Assembly: GCA_027492035.1 (NCBI GenBank)
Contig: JAOZFT010000026.1
Span: forward strand, 1 to 23,819
Source of the DNA: Thermoproteota archaeon
Lineage (GTDB): Archaea; Korarchaeota; JAOZGF01; JAOZFZ01
DNA length: 23,819 nt
Direction of reading: 5' to 3'
This document shows positions 1-3,849 of this stretch, in pieces. Numbering within the stretch: position 1 is the first letter of the stretch; each line of letters opens with the position of its first letter. Made by a program: the position numbers and the translations under genes. The notes beneath the pieces are model-generated. The model saw only the letters and a list, made by a program, of their open reading frames with translations. It searched no databases and had not been told where the DNA came from.

Positions 1-23
1 GTTTTAAATATTTTTTTCAACTT

Positions 24-67
24 GAAAAGGAAAATTTTTAAATAGTTTAATTTACATTATGTATATT
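24..67 (+). promoter_or_regulatory. Archaeal promoter (BRE + TATA) with downstream palindromic operator-like site
   Basis: Purine-rich GAAAAGGAAAA then TTTAAATA (37-44), then imperfect palindrome AATTTACA-TTA-TGTATATT (49-67). Typical TATA spacing puts the start near G69. Confidence 0.5.
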
Positions 68-68
68 T

Positions 69-180
69 GCCCTTTTTCCTTTTCTTGAAAAAGGGAAAGA
101 GGGTGGGGGGTTGGAAGAGGCTGATGCCATTCACTATTAACCTCTACCATGTTTCAGCATCAGCCTCTCATCTTTTTCTT
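69..180 (+). ncRNA. Candidate structured small RNA (two hairpins, U-rich 3' end)
   Basis: 9-bp inverted repeat CCCTTTTTC(70-78)/GAAAAAGGG(87-95); perfect 12-bp inverted repeat AGAGGCTGATGC(116-127)/GCATCAGCCTCT(157-168) with a 29-nt loop; ends in TCTTTTTCTT; upstream TATA/BRE. It could instead be a 3' structure of the convergent nadM mRNA. Confidence 0.45.
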
Positions 181-728
181 CATGTATTCAATTTTACTTT
201 ACTAAGTTCAGCGGCTCCTACAGCGTAAAGTGTCTTCAGCCTCTTAACACCATTAACTTGTTTAATAATTTTAACTGCTTCAGATGGCAAAAGTTTTTCC
301 CAGTTTCCTTGTTTAACCATTAACTCCCTTATTTTCTCTCCATTTAACCTCTCTCTTTGTTTGAAAGGTATAGGTTCCACTTTAACCGAGCTTTTTTCAC
401 ATAGTAATTTAACGAATGCGTTATTAGTGAAAACTACCTCGAAGGACGGTAAATAATTTTTTAGATACTCAATCCAGAGAGAATTGTTTGGGATATTGTT
501 TAATGGAACAATATAGACGTTTATGTTTAGATTTTTCAGTGAATCATGAATCATTTGAATTCTTTCCCCTGCTGTGAAAGGGTCTTGAAGTGTAAAGTTG
601 TACTGGGCAGCCATAACACCTACTATAACTTCTTTTGACTTTGTCAAGATATATTTGATTGCATGGAGATGACCGTTATGGAAAGGCTGGAATCTTCCAG
701 GGAAAAACACCCTCTTATACTGTTTCAA
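180..728 (-). CDS. nadM: Nicotinamide-nucleotide adenylyltransferase (archaeal NadM)
   Basis: GRFQPFHNGH HxGH motif, PFTAGERI motif, 182 aa, typical C-terminal WEKLLP; ATGA overlap with the upstream gene. Confidence 0.9.
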   Translation of the reverse strand: MKQYKRVFFPGRFQPFHNGHLHAIKYILTKSKEVIVGVMAAQYNFTLQDPFTAGERIQMIHDSLKNLNINVYIVPLNNIPNNSLWIEYLKNYLPSFEVVFTNNAFVKLLCEKSSVKVEPIPFKQRERLNGEKIRELMVKQGNWEKLLPSEAVKIIKQVNGVKRLKTLYAVGAAELSKVKLNT

Positions 729-1561
729 ACACCCTCCCCTTGCTGAAATTTAATTTTTTGGGAGGAAGTACTTCTTATCTTCATTTTCATGATTTCTTGT
801 TTAAGAAGTTTTTCAGCTTCTTCTAAGGTTTCAACTGCTTCTTTCCCTGGTAATTTTTCTGCATACAGTACAACGTTCATTTTTAATGTTTCCCCGAACC
901 CTTGAGGATAAGATTTAACCTTTAATTTTGGAAATTCCTTCATTATTTTCCTTAAAATCGGTGCAAGTGCTGATTCATCCTTAATTTCAACTTGGATTTC
1001 TTTCTGAATAAATGCTTTCTTCGCTTTAAAAAACCCTCTCTTTGTTTGAATAAAGTTTTCGAAAACATAGATCATTTCAGCGGGTACTCCCGGTAGATTA
1101 ATCAATTTCTTGTTTTTCACTGTTAACAAGACACCAGGAGCCACCCCTATTTTGTTAATCAACGGTTTCGAGTTTTGAGGCAGTAAAGCCATTTTCTTTC
1201 TCGACCGAGTTAAATTTTTTGAACTAATGAGCCCATGTTTGAAGAGGTAATTCAATCTTTCTTCCACCATTTTTAAGGCTTCTTTGTTTAGTTCCAGTTT
1301 CCTTTTCGTGGCTAAGGAGACAGCTTCTAGAGTTAGGTCTCCTGGAGTTGGTCCAAGTCCCCCGGTTGTGATTACTAAGTCGTATTTGCTGAGGAATTCC
1401 TTTATTTTGTTTTTTATGGTGTCTAAATTGTCTTTAACAACAGCTATTTCCTCCAGTTCAACATTTAAACTTGTTAACCTTTTAGCTAACCAATGTGAGT
1501 TATAGTCTAGGGTTCTTCCTGAAAGGATTTCATCGCCTACCACTATTATTCCTGCTTTCAC
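725..1561 (-). CDS. CinA N-terminal / COG1058 molybdopterin-binding-domain protein (probable pyrophosphatase; no PncC domain)
   Basis: IIVVGDEILSGRTLDYNS, TTGGLGPTPGDLT, APG and LPGVPAEM motifs; 278 aa, too short to carry the deamidase domain. Confidence 0.85.
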   Translation of the reverse strand: MKAGIIVVGDEILSGRTLDYNSHWLAKRLTSLNVELEEIAVVKDNLDTIKNKIKEFLSKYDLVITTGGLGPTPGDLTLEAVSLATKRKLELNKEALKMVEERLNYLFKHGLISSKNLTRSRKKMALLPQNSKPLINKIGVAPGVLLTVKNKKLINLPGVPAEMIYVFENFIQTKRGFFKAKKAFIQKEIQVEIKDESALAPILRKIMKEFPKLKVKSYPQGFGETLKMNVVLYAEKLPGKEAVETLEEAEKLLKQEIMKMKIRSTSSQKIKFQQGEGV

Positions 1562-2598
1562 TTCATTCTTCCCTGCTCTTCCTTTTTGAAAAAGTTGATT
1601 ATTTTTTCAGTCATTACTAAACCTGCTTGTTTCTGGGCTTCTTCGGTTTTTGCACCTATATGGTGGGTGCACACCACGTTTGGAAGTGAAGTTAAAATTT
1701 TTAGGTGTGGAGGGCCTTTGAATGGTGGTTCATAACTGTAAACATCTAGTCCTGCCCCACTTATTTTGTTGTTAAGTAAAGCTTTCGTTAACGCTTCTTC
1801 GTTTACTACTTCTCCTCTCGAAGTATTTATTACTATAGCTTCCTTTTTCAACATGTTTATTTCTTTTTCGCCAAGTAAATTCCTTGTTCCCTTTGTTAGG
1901 GGAACATGGATGGTTATTATGTCAGAAGTTTGAAGAAGTTTCTTTGGCAGCTTCAGTCCTTCCATTTTATCTTCAGGTTTTAACTCTATAAAGGAGATGC
2001 TGTTTACCTTTTCAAACTCTAAGTTTCTGTAAATGTCGTAGTATTGAACCTTCATACCGAAACTTAGGGCTAGTTTAGCCACTTTCTTACCTATTTTTCC
2101 AAGCCCTATTATCCCTATTGTTTTCCCGTTTAATGTGTGGAGGAGGCTTGTTTTTATTTGTCTCTTAAGCCAAAGTCCCTCCTTAATTGATGAATTAAAT
2201 AAAGGAATCTTTCGGTAAAGGGAGAGGGCTAGAGCTATCACTAATTCAGCTACGGAGTTGAAAATCGCCTCCGCTTCTGTTGTGTTTTCAACTTTCACCC
2301 CCTTTTGTTTTGCATGTTCAAGATCTATGTTGTCTAACCCAAGGCCAGGTCTTCCAATGTATTTCAAGTTTGAAGCTGCATCTATTGCTTCTTTATTTAC
2401 TTCTGTATTGCTTCTAACTATTAAAACGTCTGGGTTTATTTCTTTAAGTGTCTTAACAAGTCCTTTCCCTTTATTTATCTCCTCTATAGGGGTGAAAACT
2501 ACATTTTTTTGACCGAAGAAGCCCCTAAGCTTTTTTAAGGCTTCTTTATGGACTGGTTCAGTAATTAAAACTTTAACCATTCCATAAACCTCTTCCAT
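1558..2598 (-). CDS. serA: D-3-phosphoglycerate dehydrogenase / D-2-hydroxyacid dehydrogenase without ACT domain; start may be ATG at 2580
   Basis: GLGLDNID, GIIGLGKIG Rossmann motif, NTSRG Arg, DVYSYEPP Glu, HIGAKT His; next to a class V aminotransferase and SerK. Confidence 0.75.
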   Translation of the reverse strand: MEEVYGMVKVLITEPVHKEALKKLRGFFGQKNVVFTPIEEINKGKGLVKTLKEINPDVLIVRSNTEVNKEAIDAASNLKYIGRPGLGLDNIDLEHAKQKGVKVENTTEAEAIFNSVAELVIALALSLYRKIPLFNSSIKEGLWLKRQIKTSLLHTLNGKTIGIIGLGKIGKKVAKLALSFGMKVQYYDIYRNLEFEKVNSISFIELKPEDKMEGLKLPKKLLQTSDIITIHVPLTKGTRNLLGEKEINMLKKEAIVINTSRGEVVNEEALTKALLNNKISGAGLDVYSYEPPFKGPPHLKILTSLPNVVCTHHIGAKTEEAQKQAGLVMTEKIINFFKKEEQGRMK

Positions 2599-2607
2599 GT
2601 TTATTTT

Positions 2608-3849
2608 TTAAATTTCATTTATGTGTTTCATGTTTTTTTCAAGTATTTCCTGGGCTTTGGTTATTCCTTCACCTTCCTTAAATTCATGCTTAAGTTCTTT
2701 CAAGGTTAGTTCCAAAGCTGAAATGGTTTTGAGCACGTGACGTGGATAAATGAAGCCCATATGCCCTATCCGGAAAATTTTACCGAATAAATCAACTCTT
2801 TTGTCCTTTGTTACATTCCACGACTGTCCCTTAGCCACCAATACACCATACCTTTTCAGGGTTTCCCTCAAGGCCTTGTCCCTCTTCTTTTTTAGGGAAA
2901 TGTTTAATTTCTCAATTTCTTGAGGAATTGTTAGAGGGGGTATTTCAACAGAGGTGACTGTTTTTGAAGCTACTTTATCTTCGACAAAAAGGTTTAGGTT
3001 TAATGCTTTAACAGCTTCCCTGACCATTTCTTGACAAATTTGATGCCTCTTTATTCTGTTACTTAACCCTTCTTCAAAAACAAGGTTTAGGGACTCATTT
3101 AATGCATAGATCATGTTTATTGCTATAGTGAATGGTGTTTGAGGATGTTTTTGTTTGTAGTTTTGGAGGTTAAGGTAGTAGGGTTTGGATTTCTTTTTTT
3201 CAATTACTTCCCAAGCTTTTTCACTGACTGTTATAAAAGATAAACCTGGAGGTAGAGCTAAACATTTCTGTGAACCTGCAAAGCAAATATCTATATGTCT
3301 TTTATCAACTTCTACATTGTCCCCTCCCAGTGAGGACACAGTGTCAACAATAAACAATGCTTCATGTTCCTTAACTATTTCACCTACTTCCTTTACAGGA
3401 TTTACTGAACCTGTTGAGGTGTTGTTATGAACCATTGTAACAGCTTTAAATTCTTTTTTATCAAGTTTCTCCCTAACTTTTTCAGGATTAACAATTCCTC
3501 CTGGCTCCACATCAACTACTTCAGGTTTCCCGCCATAGTTTTCCACTATTTCCTTTAGTCTAGAACTGAATTTTCCTGAAACAACACATAAAACATTGTC
3601 ACCTTTATTTACAACGTTTGAAACAGCAGCGTCCATAGCGGATGTCCCGCTCCCAGTAAGGATGAAGACGTCATTCTTTGTTTCAAAAACTTTTTTCAGT
3701 CCTTCGTAACAGTTTGAAAGCAGAACAGTGAATTCTTCTTCCCTGTGATGAACCAAAGGCTTTGACAGTGCCCTCAAAATTTTTTCAGGCACAAAAGTGG
3801 GGCCAGGAGTCATTAACAATAACTTATTCAATCTTTTCCTCACCTTCAA
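2608..3849 (-). CDS. Class V PLP aminotransferase (serine-pyruvate / archaeal phosphoserine aminotransferase type); start probably TTG at 3831
   Basis: LMTPGP, GSGTSAMD, DTVSSLGG, GSQKCL PLP lysine, FRIGHMG; SD-like GGTGAGG precedes the TTG at 3831. Confidence 0.85.
   Translation of the reverse strand: MKVRKRLNKLLLMTPGPTFVPEKILRALSKPLVHHREEEFTVLLSNCYEGLKKVFETKNDVFILTGSGTSAMDAAVSNVVNKGDNVLCVVSGKFSSRLKEIVENYGGKPEVVDVEPGGIVNPEKVREKLDKKEFKAVTMVHNNTSTGSVNPVKEVGEIVKEHEALFIVDTVSSLGGDNVEVDKRHIDICFAGSQKCLALPPGLSFITVSEKAWEVIEKKKSKPYYLNLQNYKQKHPQTPFTIAINMIYALNESLNLVFEEGLSNRIKRHQICQEMVREAVKALNLNLFVEDKVASKTVTSVEIPPLTIPQEIEKLNISLKKKRDKALRETLKRYGVLVAKGQSWNVTKDKRVDLFGKIFRIGHMGFIYPRHVLKTISALELTLKELKHEFKEGEGITKAQEILEKNMKHINEI

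What the first reader, a model, noticed from the sequence alone, without database searches (positions are those of the whole stretch)
69..180. Candidate trans-acting sRNA whose hairpin loop is antisense to the serA translation-initiation region
Seen: a BRE/TATA promoter (37-44), two hairpins and a U-rich end define a ~110-nt plus-strand unit. The 29-nt loop of the perfect 12-bp stem contains AACCTCTACCATGTTT (139-154), which matches 2587-2602 (AACCTCTTCCATGTTT) at 15/16. CCATTC (127-132) also matches 2577-2582. Because serA is on the minus strand, the RNA would pair with mRNA AAACAUGGAAGAGGUUUAUGGAAUGG, covering both candidate AUGs (2598, 2580) and the GAGG SD; about 24 of 26 target nt can pair if a G-U pair and a 2-nt bulge are allowed. 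Inference: an sRNA at the end of the operon selectively silences serA within a polycistronic mRNA and so controls Ser/3-phosphoglycerate flux. I do not recognise it as a known RNA family.
Basis: partly seen in the sequence, partly recalled or inferred. Interest (0 to 1): 0.8.

Follow-up and report, generated by a model that had tools for sequence, protein, structure and literature searches.

The report
Histone-tail antisense small RNA candidate
The two-hairpin unit is real, but it looks like a reversed copy of the end of this archaeon's histone genes, so if it is made into RNA it most likely pairs with histone messages and not with the serine gene.

Summary
A consensus TATA box sits at 37-44, hairpins at 69-104 and 116-168, and a T5 run at 173-177. 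The 15/16 match of loop 139-154 to 2587-2602 is also there.

The serA reading is not supported:
- The serA site is only the 15th best genomic partner of the loop and the 3rd best start region.
- 198 of 400 shuffled loops (49.5%) give as many near-perfect 16-mer hits.

What the unit resembles instead is the reverse complement of the 3' end of the genome's two histone genes (window about 88-146). This covers the last codons, the stop, a tail far better conserved than the coding sequence, and the U-tract. The only other genome of the family (G001) has the same architecture at another locus. It matches G001's own histone tail, shows one compensatory stem change, and has a TATA box 25 nt before the anti-tail.

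Genome-wide, the anti-tail segment pairs best with the two histone tails: -57.5 and -56.1 kcal/mol, next best -46.3.

Best reading, at about 0.45: a plus-strand small RNA antisense in trans to histone mRNA 3' ends. The main rival is a histone-type terminator for the minus-strand operon. No expression data could be obtained.

The parts
1..10 (+). Upstream BRE/TATA-like motif P1. The 13-mer spans window -2..10, with TTTAAATA at 3-10.
   Evidence: Matches [AG]A[AG][AGT][AT]TTTAAATA. That pattern occurs 55 times in the genome, 40 of them intergenic. The left part was read from contig C38.
32..44 (+). BRE/TATA-like motif P2, with TTTAAATA at 37-44. The predicted start is near G69.
   Evidence: Same pattern match. 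The octamer is identical to the TATA boxes of both histone genes. 24 nt lie between it and G69.
69..104 (+). Hairpin 1: 69-83 pairs with 90-104, 15 bp, 6-nt loop. G.U pairs are at 69.104, 74.99 and 80.93. The 5' arm carries T5 (73-77) and T4 (80-83).
   Evidence: MFE structure. On the minus strand the three G.U pairs become A.C mismatches.
88..146 (+). Reverse complement of a histone gene 3' end: U-tract, conserved tail, spacer, stop and last codons.
   Evidence: Alignment A1, pairwise alignments and the 23-mer mismatch scan.
95..127 (+). Anti-tail segment: G-rich linker 105-115 plus the 5' arm of hairpin 2. This is the proposed pairing region for histone mRNA tails.
   Evidence: Genome-wide RNAduplex gives histone tails -57.5 and -56.1 kcal/mol, next best -46.3.
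116..168 (+). Hairpin 2: 116-127 pairs with 157-168, 12 bp, with 29-nt loop 128-156. The 3' arm is a sense copy of the start of the histone tail.
   Evidence: The core GGCTGATGC/GCATCAGCC is shared with G001, with one compensatory pair.
139..154 (+). Loop 16-mer that matches 2587-2602 at 15/16.
   Evidence: The match is not specific genome-wide.
173..177 (+). T5 run after hairpin 2, the candidate terminator of the plus-strand RNA.
   Evidence: Sequence. U-tracts are the archaeal termination signal (PMC8716108, passages read).
88..127 (-). Histone-type tail read on the minus strand: tail start, C-rich tract, then T5 at 92-88. This is the candidate terminator of the minus-strand operon.
   Evidence: It is the most C-rich pre-T-run tract of 290 gene tails (13 of 20 bases).
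180..728 (-). Nicotinamide-nucleotide adenylyltransferase gene, the last gene of the minus-strand operon.
   Evidence: NCBIfam NF002243, 195 bits against a cutoff of 127; Pfam PF01467.
2577..2602 (-). GAGG lies 8 nt before the ATG at 2580.
   Evidence: The G001 orthologue begins at the position of the 2580 ATG. TIGR01327 scores 267 bits, below its cutoff of 454.

Best explanation
Window 69-180 is a small non-coding unit built around an inverted copy of the 3' end of a histone gene.

**Shown.**
- The segment from about 88 to 146 is the reverse complement of the histone 3' end: last codons, stop, a conserved 26-nt tail and the U-tract.
- The same kind of element, matching its own genome's histone tail, exists in the only other genome of the family.
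- The histone tails are by far the best pairing partners of the anti-tail segment in the genome.

**Inferred.**
- The unit is transcribed from the plus strand, from the BRE/TATA at 32-44, starting near G69 and ending at the T5 run 173-177.
- The G-rich linker (105-115) nucleates pairing with the C-rich tail of both histone mRNAs. Pairing then spreads into the flanking stems.
- The resulting duplex covers the terminator-proximal end of the histone messages and changes their 3'-end formation or stability.

The resemblance of the loop to the serA start is most likely a by-product of this origin.
For: 1. **Copies in this genome.** The 23-mer 105-127 has only two non-self matches with at most 5 mismatches (2 and 3 mismatches). 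Each lies on the transcribed strand 8-10 nt after the stop of a histone gene and is followed by T5-T7.
2. **Selection on the tail.** The two histone paralogues are 72% identical in coding sequence (149/207), and 29/69 at third positions. Their tails match at 28 of 30.
3. **Extent of the similarity.** The alignment of the window with the histone tails runs from the stop-codon region to the T-run (A1).
4. **Second family member.** G001's histone tail has a second copy at C203 (E 3.8e-5, 89% identity). It is not next to a histone gene. It is preceded by a 14-nt inverted repeat of its own start, with a 65-nt loop.
5. **Distribution and covariation.** The core-stem pattern finds the element in 2 of 43 genomes of the phylum, which are both members of the family. 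One pair is A-T in G000 and G-C in G001.
6. **Tail similarity over 30 nt**:
   - within a genome, element to histone: 26, 26 and 24 matches;
   - element to element: 23;
   - histone to histone across genomes: 17-20.
7. **RNAduplex of each candidate RNA with histone 3' ends**:
   - own genome: -77.3, -77.3 and -68.3 kcal/mol;
   - other genome: -54.8, -51.7 and -48.5;
   - shuffled targets: 0 of 300 reach the own-genome values in each of three tests.
8. **Genome-wide scan with 95-127.** The histone tails score -57.5 and -56.1 kcal/mol. The next best site scores -46.3.
9. **Strand.**
   - The consensus TATA lies 24 nt (G000) and 25 nt (G001) before the structured or anti-tail start.
   - In G001, similarity to the histone tail stops exactly at that predicted start, and the sense copy there has no U-tract.
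   - The anti-tail strand folds better in both genomes: z -4.16 against -3.41, and -4.37 against -2.71.
Against: - No expression evidence exists. No sequencing run could be listed, so transcription and strand rest on sequence motifs alone.
- Only two genomes carry the element. They are not syntenic: the G001 flanking genes map to contigs C5 and C20 of G000. Orthology against independent origin is therefore open.
- The margin of within-genome over element-to-element similarity is small (24-26 against 23 of 30), and the sequences are C-rich and of low complexity. Gene conversion could produce the same pattern without any RNA pairing.
- In G000 the predicted RNA carries T5 and T4 tracts 5-15 nt after its start (73-77 and 80-83). 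In Methanococcus, two U4 tracts give the strongest termination (PMC8716108, passages). Much plus-strand transcription could therefore stop before the anti-tail.
- In both genomes the tail copy lies just downstream of a gene on the sense strand. That also fits a 3'-UTR or terminator role.
- Most of the anti-tail is held in stems. Only about 11 nt are free.
- No extra tail copy was found in G002 (71% complete), and no convincing one in G005, G009 or G020.
Confidence: 0.45

Rival explanations
1. Sense-strand reading. The region is the 3' untranslated end and terminator of the minus-strand operon (aminotransferase, dehydrogenase, CinA-like, NMNAT). It reuses the histone-type tail of a C-rich tract plus U5. 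Hairpin 2 stabilises the 3' end, and the inverted repeats form a two-way terminator between convergent genes. No plus-strand RNA has a function.
For: - In this genome a C-rich tract before T5 or longer is the usual gene end. Of 831 genes with at least 50 nt of non-coding sequence downstream, 454 have T5 or longer within 100 nt. The 20 nt before the run are 20.2% C and 13.2% G, against 17.1% and 20.5% in the coding control.
- The NMNAT tail is the most C-rich of 290.
- Histone genes in 14 loci of relatives show the same kind of tail.
- The motif is on the transcribed strand at both histone genes, where there is no room for an antisense promoter.
- Both strands here read hairpin 2, then pyrimidines, then T5.
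- The genes are convergent: the plus-strand ABC-2 permease ends about 263 nt left of the window.
Against: - The G001 copy has no U-tract after the C-rich tract, so it cannot be a terminator there.
- Archaeal terminators do not need hairpins (PMC8716108, passages). This reading therefore does not explain a conserved 12-14 bp inverted repeat with a compensatory change.
- It does not explain two consensus BRE/TATA motifs pointing into the element.
- It does not explain why an unrelated operon shares a near-identical tail of at least 26 nt with the histone genes.
Confidence: 0.27
2. Cis-antisense reading. A plus-strand RNA exists, but its role is local. It overlaps the 3' end of the convergent NMNAT operon transcript and acts on that mRNA. 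The histone similarity reflects only origin.
For: - The promoter motifs and the terminator are on the plus strand.
- The RNA would be perfectly complementary to the operon's 3' end by construction (self hit -73.2 kcal/mol).
- An antisense RNA at the 3' end of tpi is known in Pyrobaculum (review PMC4152357, passage).
Against: - The neighbouring gene differs in G001: a 111-aa membrane protein there and NMNAT here. No conserved local target exists.
- The element tracks the histone tail, not its neighbour.
Confidence: 0.1
3. Relic reading. The element is a decaying remnant of a histone gene copy or a rearrangement scar, with no function on either strand.
For: - Similarity to the histone 3' end includes the stop codon and a few last codons, as expected for a truncated copy.
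- The locations are not syntenic.
- The contig junction falls at exactly position 127/128, which hints at population variation here.
Against: - The same architecture, tail copy plus an inverted repeat of its start, is kept in two genera. Meanwhile the histone coding sequences are saturated at third positions (29/69 identical).
- The stem shows a compensatory change.
- Fold z-scores are -4.2 and -4.4.
Confidence: 0.1
4. A plus-strand sRNA uses its 29-nt loop to mask the SD and AUG of serA inside the polycistronic mRNA.
For: - The 15/16 match is real and is the best local alignment of the element inside the window. 3 of 300 shuffles reach it for the element and 4 of 300 for the loop.
- 0 of 400 shuffled loops hit a start region on this contig.
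- The match covers GAGG and lies just upstream of the likely ATG at 2580.
- The G001 loop contains ACACCTCAA, the complement of TTGAGGTGT in the G001 serA start region.
- The mechanism has a precedent in sRNA162 (PMC3510493, abstract).
Against: - 14 distinct sites pair better with the loop. Two are predicted gene starts, at -27.6 and -26.3 kcal/mol against -25.4.
- 45 of 400 shuffled loops (11%) hit some start region in the genome.
- GAGG lies before 27% of predicted starts, so an ACCTC loop is generically anti-SD.
- The matching loop bases sit in the stretch that aligns with the end of the histone gene.
- The anti-tail segment has partners that are better by about 30 kcal/mol.
- A scan of about 250,000 windows is expected to yield many chance matches at the 1-in-several-hundred level.
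Confidence: 0.05

Closest known systems
sRNA162 of Methanosarcina mazei (PMC3510493; abstract read)
   Same: It is an archaeal small RNA with stem-loops. A single-stranded linker pairs with an mRNA in trans, and it can also act on a neighbouring transcript.
   Different: Here the start-region complementarity is not specific. The strong, conserved complementarity is to the 3' ends of the histone mRNAs. There is no sequence or Rfam relationship.
Archaeal sRNAs that bind mRNA 3' ends: asR3 and tpi in Pyrobaculum, and 3'-UTR-binding sRNAs of Sulfolobus solfataricus and Haloferax volcanii (review PMC4152357; abstract and passages read)
   Same: The antisense pairing lies at the stop codon or 3' UTR of the target, and it is conserved between related species.
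   Different: - As I recall it (not from a call), asR3 overlaps its target locus, whereas this element is encoded away from the histone genes.
- The target class, histones, does not occur in that review: 'histone' has 0 occurrences.
- The Sulfolobus case is described in that review's reference list as transposon-derived, whereas this element derives from the target gene's own 3' end.
Archaeal U-tract terminators acting with aCPSF1 (PMC8716108; abstract and passages read)
   Same: The minus-strand reading ends in a C-rich tract plus U5, like many gene ends in this genome. The plus-strand unit also ends in U5.
   Different: Those terminators need no hairpin and no long conserved sequence. Here a tail of at least 26 nt is conserved between unrelated transcription units, and the G001 copy lacks the U-tract.
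Regulatory RNA genes born from inverted duplication of their target gene, as proposed for plant microRNA genes (recalled, from no call)
   Same: The locus contains an antisense copy of part of the target, plus a short sense copy that folds back on it.
   Different: The domain of life and the machinery differ. No processing into short RNAs is implied here.

Membership tests
Trans-encoded base-pairing sRNA (archaeal type, as sRNA162) | Own promoter in an intergenic region | tested here: met
   Two matches to the genome's BRE/TATA pattern lie on the plus strand. The pattern has 55 matches genome-wide, 40 of them intergenic, and includes both histone promoters. This is sequence evidence only.
Trans-encoded base-pairing sRNA (archaeal type, as sRNA162) | A detectable transcript of defined ends | not testable with these tools
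   No sequencing run could be listed for window 1-3000.
Trans-encoded base-pairing sRNA (archaeal type, as sRNA162) | Structure conserved in relatives, with compensatory change | tested here: met
   The hairpin core is present in 2 of 2 genomes of the family, with one A-T to G-C pair exchange. With n = 2 this is weak.
Trans-encoded base-pairing sRNA (archaeal type, as sRNA162) | Complementarity to the proposed target clearly above the genomic background (serA start) | tested here: not met
   The site ranks 15th of the distinct non-self sites and 3rd among predicted starts. 198 of 400 shuffles (49.5%) give at least 2 hits.
Trans-encoded base-pairing sRNA (archaeal type, as sRNA162) | Complementarity to the proposed target clearly above the genomic background (histone mRNA 3' tails) | tested here: met
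   These are the top two trans sites, at -57.5 and -56.1 kcal/mol against -46.3 for the next. 0 of 300 shuffled targets reach the observed values.
Archaeal intrinsic (U-tract) terminator of the minus-strand operon | U-tract of at least 4-5 shortly after the stop, on the transcribed strand | tested here: met
   T5 lies at 92-88 on the minus strand, 88 nt after the NMNAT stop and preceded by a C-rich tract.
Archaeal intrinsic (U-tract) terminator of the minus-strand operon | The same feature in the homologous element of the relative | tested here: not met
   The G001 sense copy runs from the C-rich tract into ATACTTATATG, without a U-tract.
Any Rfam family, including C/D-box and H/ACA guide RNAs | Score at or above the family's gathering threshold | tested here: not met
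   There are 0 matches at gathering thresholds in the window. The best sub-threshold hits in 1-400 are noise: sR52 at 13.4 bits against 50, and sR43 at 9.1 against 45. There is nothing in the left flank. No tRNA was found.

The most novel reading that the evidence does not exclude
A family-conserved small RNA, born from an inverted copy of a histone gene's 3' end, co-evolves with the terminator-proximal tail of every histone mRNA in the cell and pairs with it. By covering the C-rich tract and the U-tract, it would tune histone dosage through 3'-end formation (U-tract and aCPSF1-dependent termination or read-through) or through mRNA decay. Its 3' arm is a built-in sense copy of the tail start. 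That arm would act as an intramolecular target mimic that keeps the RNA closed until pairing is nucleated at the G-rich linker.
Probability: 0.15. Interest if true: 0.75.

Novelty: new variant of a known kind. Interest (0 to 1): 0.45.

Why it matters
- **Possible new biology.** If the plus-strand RNA exists and pairs with histone mRNA tails, I know of no earlier RNA-based control of archaeal chromatin protein genes. Two full-text searches listed none, and the 2014 review of archaeal sRNAs does not mention histones. It would also be a clear prokaryotic example of a regulator RNA derived from its own target.
- **Independent result.** The histone 3' tail is far better conserved than the coding sequence. 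This is a concrete, testable observation about archaeal mRNA 3' ends.
- **Lesson for the scan.** An ACCTC...CAT loop will find start regions by chance.

Tried and rejected
- **Known RNA families.** Rfam gave no hit at gathering thresholds on the window. A permissive search of 1-400 and of the left flank gave nothing usable. No tRNA or tmRNA was found.
- **Bacterial-type signals.** The promoter and terminator scan did not flag the hairpins. Its loop limit is 3-8 nt, and it is not designed for archaea.
- **Guide RNAs.** C/D-box or H/ACA readings were rejected. I saw no boxes by eye, and only noise-level Rfam scores appeared.
- **Small proteins.** I considered small ORFs on both strands: 34-53 aa on the plus strand, and 26 and 32 aa on the minus strand. 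I rejected them because the histone-tail copies have no start codon or consistent frame and G001 has no matching ORF.
- **DNA search in relatives.** A search of 30-185 in 40 relatives gave no match covering the element (best E 0.029). The exact 16-20-mers in six genomes of genus g4 lie, at the one locus examined (G017), inside a 671-aa membrane-protein ORF. I read them as coincidence.
- **Synteny route.**
  - The nearest NMNAT relatives in genome contigs (18 loci, at most 41% identity) and metagenome contigs (7 loci, at most 39%) are too distant.
  - In G001 the NMNAT gene overlaps a convergent ORF, so it has no such intergenic region.
- **Expression.** No sequencing run was listed and no RNA holder was listed.
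- **serA in G001.** No antisense match of 14 nt or more covers its SD-AUG. This BLAST test would miss a match interrupted in the middle.
- **Extra histone-tail copies elsewhere.**
  - G002: only a self-palindrome and low-complexity hits.
  - G005: one weak hit (85% over 33 nt, E 0.03) inside a 444-aa ORF.
  - G020: none.
  - G009: only hits of at most 23 nt.
- **G008 pattern match.** It spans a stop codon and the next gene's start, so I read it as chance.
- **Pair counting.** MAFFT did not align the 3' arms of the two elements (A2, A3). The count of structure pairs and a covariance model were therefore not used, and the compensatory pair is read.
Full report
**Setting.** The window is contig C16 of a 1.87-Mb, 42-contig archaeal assembly (36-37% GC, 93% complete). 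The finding sits at the contig's left end. Contig C38, reverse-complemented, overlaps window 1-127 exactly, so the left flank can be read.

The element lies in an intergenic region of about 440 nt between two convergent units:
- On the plus strand, an ABC-2-type permease gene ends about 263 nt left of the window.
- On the minus strand there is an operon of four genes:
  - a class-V aminotransferase (3849-2608);
  - a phosphoglycerate-dehydrogenase-like 2-hydroxyacid dehydrogenase (2598/2580-1558);
  - a CinA-like protein (1561-725);
  - NMN adenylyltransferase (728-180).

The name 'serA' is plausible but not established. TIGR01327 scores 267 bits against a cutoff of 454. The true start is probably the ATG at 2580, because the G001 orthologue begins there (MRVLITEP...).

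**Observation check.** The hairpins are far beyond chance, with z -4.16 on the plus strand and -3.41 on the minus strand.

**The serA link.** I tested it in three ways.
- *Sequence.* The loop has 2 non-self 16-mer hits with at most 1 mismatch in the genome.
  - Across 400 shuffled loops the mean is 2.5 hits, and 198 of 400 (49.5%) have at least 2.
  - 45 of 400 (11%) hit some predicted start region in antisense.
  - 0 of 400 hit one on this contig (an earlier run of 40 shuffles gave 19 with at least 2).
- *Energy.* I ran RNAduplex with the 29-nt loop against 186,656 windows of 50 nt covering both strands of all contigs.
  - The serA site scores -25.4 kcal/mol. It comes after 14 better distinct non-self sites and ties with two more.
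  - Two of the better sites lie over predicted gene starts, at -27.6 and -26.3.
  - Gene starts come from my own crude set of 1,723 ORFs of at least 80 aa.
- *Local alignment.* Inside the window the serA site is the best hit of the element. 3 of 300 shuffles reach it for the element and 4 of 300 for the loop.

The match is therefore unusual locally but ordinary genome-wide. A trans-acting RNA gains nothing from proximity to its target. GAGG precedes 27% of predicted starts against 6% in the background, so an ACCTC...CAT loop is generically complementary to start regions.

**What the element resembles.** A BLAST of 60-185 against the genome gave one short second hit in contig C9. A mismatch scan of the 23-mer 105-127 then found exactly two other copies, with 2 and 3 mismatches. 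Both lie on the transcribed strand 8-10 nt after the stop codon of a 68-aa archaeal histone gene, and each is followed by T5-T7.

Read on the minus strand, the window carries the same tail: tail start, C-rich tract, then T5. Alignment A1 extends the similarity from the T-run back through the spacer to the stop codon and the last codons.

The two histone paralogues are only 72% identical in coding sequence (149/207), and 29 of 69 third positions match. Their tails match at 28 of 30. The tail is therefore under selection or homogenised.

Part of the loop that matches serA (…AGAGGTT…) lies in the stretch that aligns with the histone end (…AGA GGC GTT TAA…). This gives a simple origin for its SD-like look.

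**Comparative evidence.** The family has only one other species genome in the collection (G001), and the order has one more (G002).
- *Second copy in G001.* G001 has a single histone match at E <= 1e-5 in the search. Searching G001 with that gene's own tail found a second copy on contig C203 (E 3.8e-5, 89% identity). It lies between a 111-aa membrane-protein ORF and a GNAT gene, not next to a histone.
- *Same architecture.* The tail copy in G001 is again preceded by an inverted repeat of its own first 14 nt, here with a 65-nt loop.
- *Shared core.* The stems share the core GGCTG[A/G]TGC ... GCA[T/C]CAGCC. The variable pair is A-T in G000 and G-C in G001, which is one compensatory change.
- *Distribution.* With that pattern the element is found in 2 of the 43 genomes held for the phylum, both members of the family. 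A third match, in G008, spans a stop codon and the next gene's start and is chance.
- *Tail similarity over 30 nt*:
  - element to own histone tails: 26, 26 and 24 matches;
  - element to element: 23;
  - histone tails across genomes: 17-20.
- *Duplex energies*:
  - each candidate RNA with its own genome's histone 3' ends: -77.3, -77.3 and -68.3 kcal/mol;
  - cross-genome pairs: -54.8, -51.7 and -48.5;
  - 0 of 300 shuffled targets reach the own-genome values.
- *Genome-wide ranking.* In G000, the anti-tail segment 95-127 pairs with histone tail B at -57.5 and tail A at -56.1, well ahead of the next site at -46.3.

**Which strand?**

For the plus strand (antisense to the tail):
- There are two matches to the genome's BRE/TATA pattern on that strand. 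The pattern has 55 matches genome-wide, 40 of them in the 16% of the genome that is intergenic. Its members include both histone promoters, a tRNA-like gene and a small basic protein gene.
- The TATA box lies 24 nt (G000) or 25 nt (G001) before the first structured or anti-tail base.
- In G001, similarity to the histone tail stops exactly at that predicted start, and the sense copy has no U-tract.
- A U-run follows the hairpin on this strand in both genomes.
- Fold scores are better on this strand in both genomes.
- Hairpin 1 has three G.U pairs that are A.C on the other strand.

For the minus strand:
- C-rich tract plus T5 is the typical gene end in this genome, and the NMNAT tail is the most C-rich of 290.
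- Histone genes of relatives end the same way.
- In both genomes the tail copy follows a gene on the sense strand.
- The plus-strand RNA of G000 would meet T5 and T4 tracts 5-15 nt after its start. Two U4 tracts are a strong terminator in Methanococcus (PMC8716108, passages).

The two readings are not exclusive.

**Mechanism proposed.** The shown and inferred steps are set out under Best explanation. In brief, the histone-derived anatomy, its presence in both family genomes and the outlier complementarity to the histone tails are shown. Plus-strand transcription from about G69 to about 177, nucleation at the linker 105-115, and an effect on histone mRNA 3'-end formation or stability are inferred. 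What the 3' arm, a sense copy of the tail start, does is open. It may be only a terminator stem or an intramolecular mimic of the target.

**Comparison with known systems.** Pairing with mRNA 3' ends is known for archaeal sRNAs in Pyrobaculum, Sulfolobus and Haloferax (review passages). The element matches no Rfam family. Two full-text searches listed no paper on RNA control of archaeal histone mRNAs, and the review does not contain the word histone. That is not proof that none exists. I file it as a new variant of a known kind: a 3'-end-targeting antisense sRNA that is derived from its target and directed at histone genes.

**Limits.**
- There are no expression data.
- Only two genomes carry the element, and they are not syntenic.
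- The sequences are of low complexity, and the similarity margins are small.
- Gene conversion is an alternative to co-evolution.
- RNAduplex ignores intramolecular structure.
- My gene set is crude.
- The organism's name is not known to me. The phylum holds only 43 species genomes in the collection.

Noticed in passing
window 1-127 and contig C38:1-127: Contigs C16 and C38 overlap by exactly 127 nt. The overlap ends at position 127, which is the last base of the 5' arm of hairpin 2 and of the histone-tail similarity. Twenty pairs of contig ends in this assembly overlap by exactly 127 nt, so these look like branch points of a k=127 assembly graph. A missing third branch could mean that the loop, from 128 on, varies in the population.
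   Followed up: partly
G000 contig C9:170930-170973 and 404075-404119 (loci L077, L056): The 3' tails of the two histone genes match at 28 of 30, while the coding sequences are 72% identical and saturated at third positions (29/69). On its own this points to a sequence-specific function of the histone mRNA 3' end.
   Followed up: yes
whole genome G000, e.g. window 6814 onward (+), C8:36111 onward, C9:586573 onward: Many genes end in a short C-rich tract directly followed by T5 or longer. The 20 nt before the first T5 run are 20.2% C and 13.2% G, against 17.1% and 20.5% in the coding control. Histone genes in other families of the phylum show the same pattern.
   Followed up: partly
G000 C9:289484-289496 (-), C21:56239-56251 (-), C14:3094-3106 (+), C29:5397-5409 (-) and others: About a dozen consensus BRE/TATA motifs have no ORF of at least 80 aa within 150 nt downstream. 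Some are followed by short GC-rich inverted repeats. These may be further small RNA or small protein genes.
   Followed up: no
window 2580 vs 2598: The dehydrogenase probably starts at the ATG at 2580, which has GAGG 8 nt upstream. The longest-ORF ATG at 2598 is less likely, because the G001 orthologue starts at the equivalent of 2580. The aminotransferase-dehydrogenase pair is conserved in G001, but the CinA-like and NMNAT genes are elsewhere there.
   Followed up: partly
G005:C1:616744-616773 (locus L109 about 1501-1530): A stretch of 33 nt is 85% identical to that genome's histone tail (E 0.03). It lies antisense inside a 444-aa ORF. It is probably chance, but it is the only hint of a tail copy outside family f1.
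   Followed up: partly
G000 C9:458426 onward (+): A tRNA-like sequence with what looks like an insertion lies about 60 nt downstream of a consensus BRE/TATA motif. It was not checked with ARAGORN.
   Followed up: no
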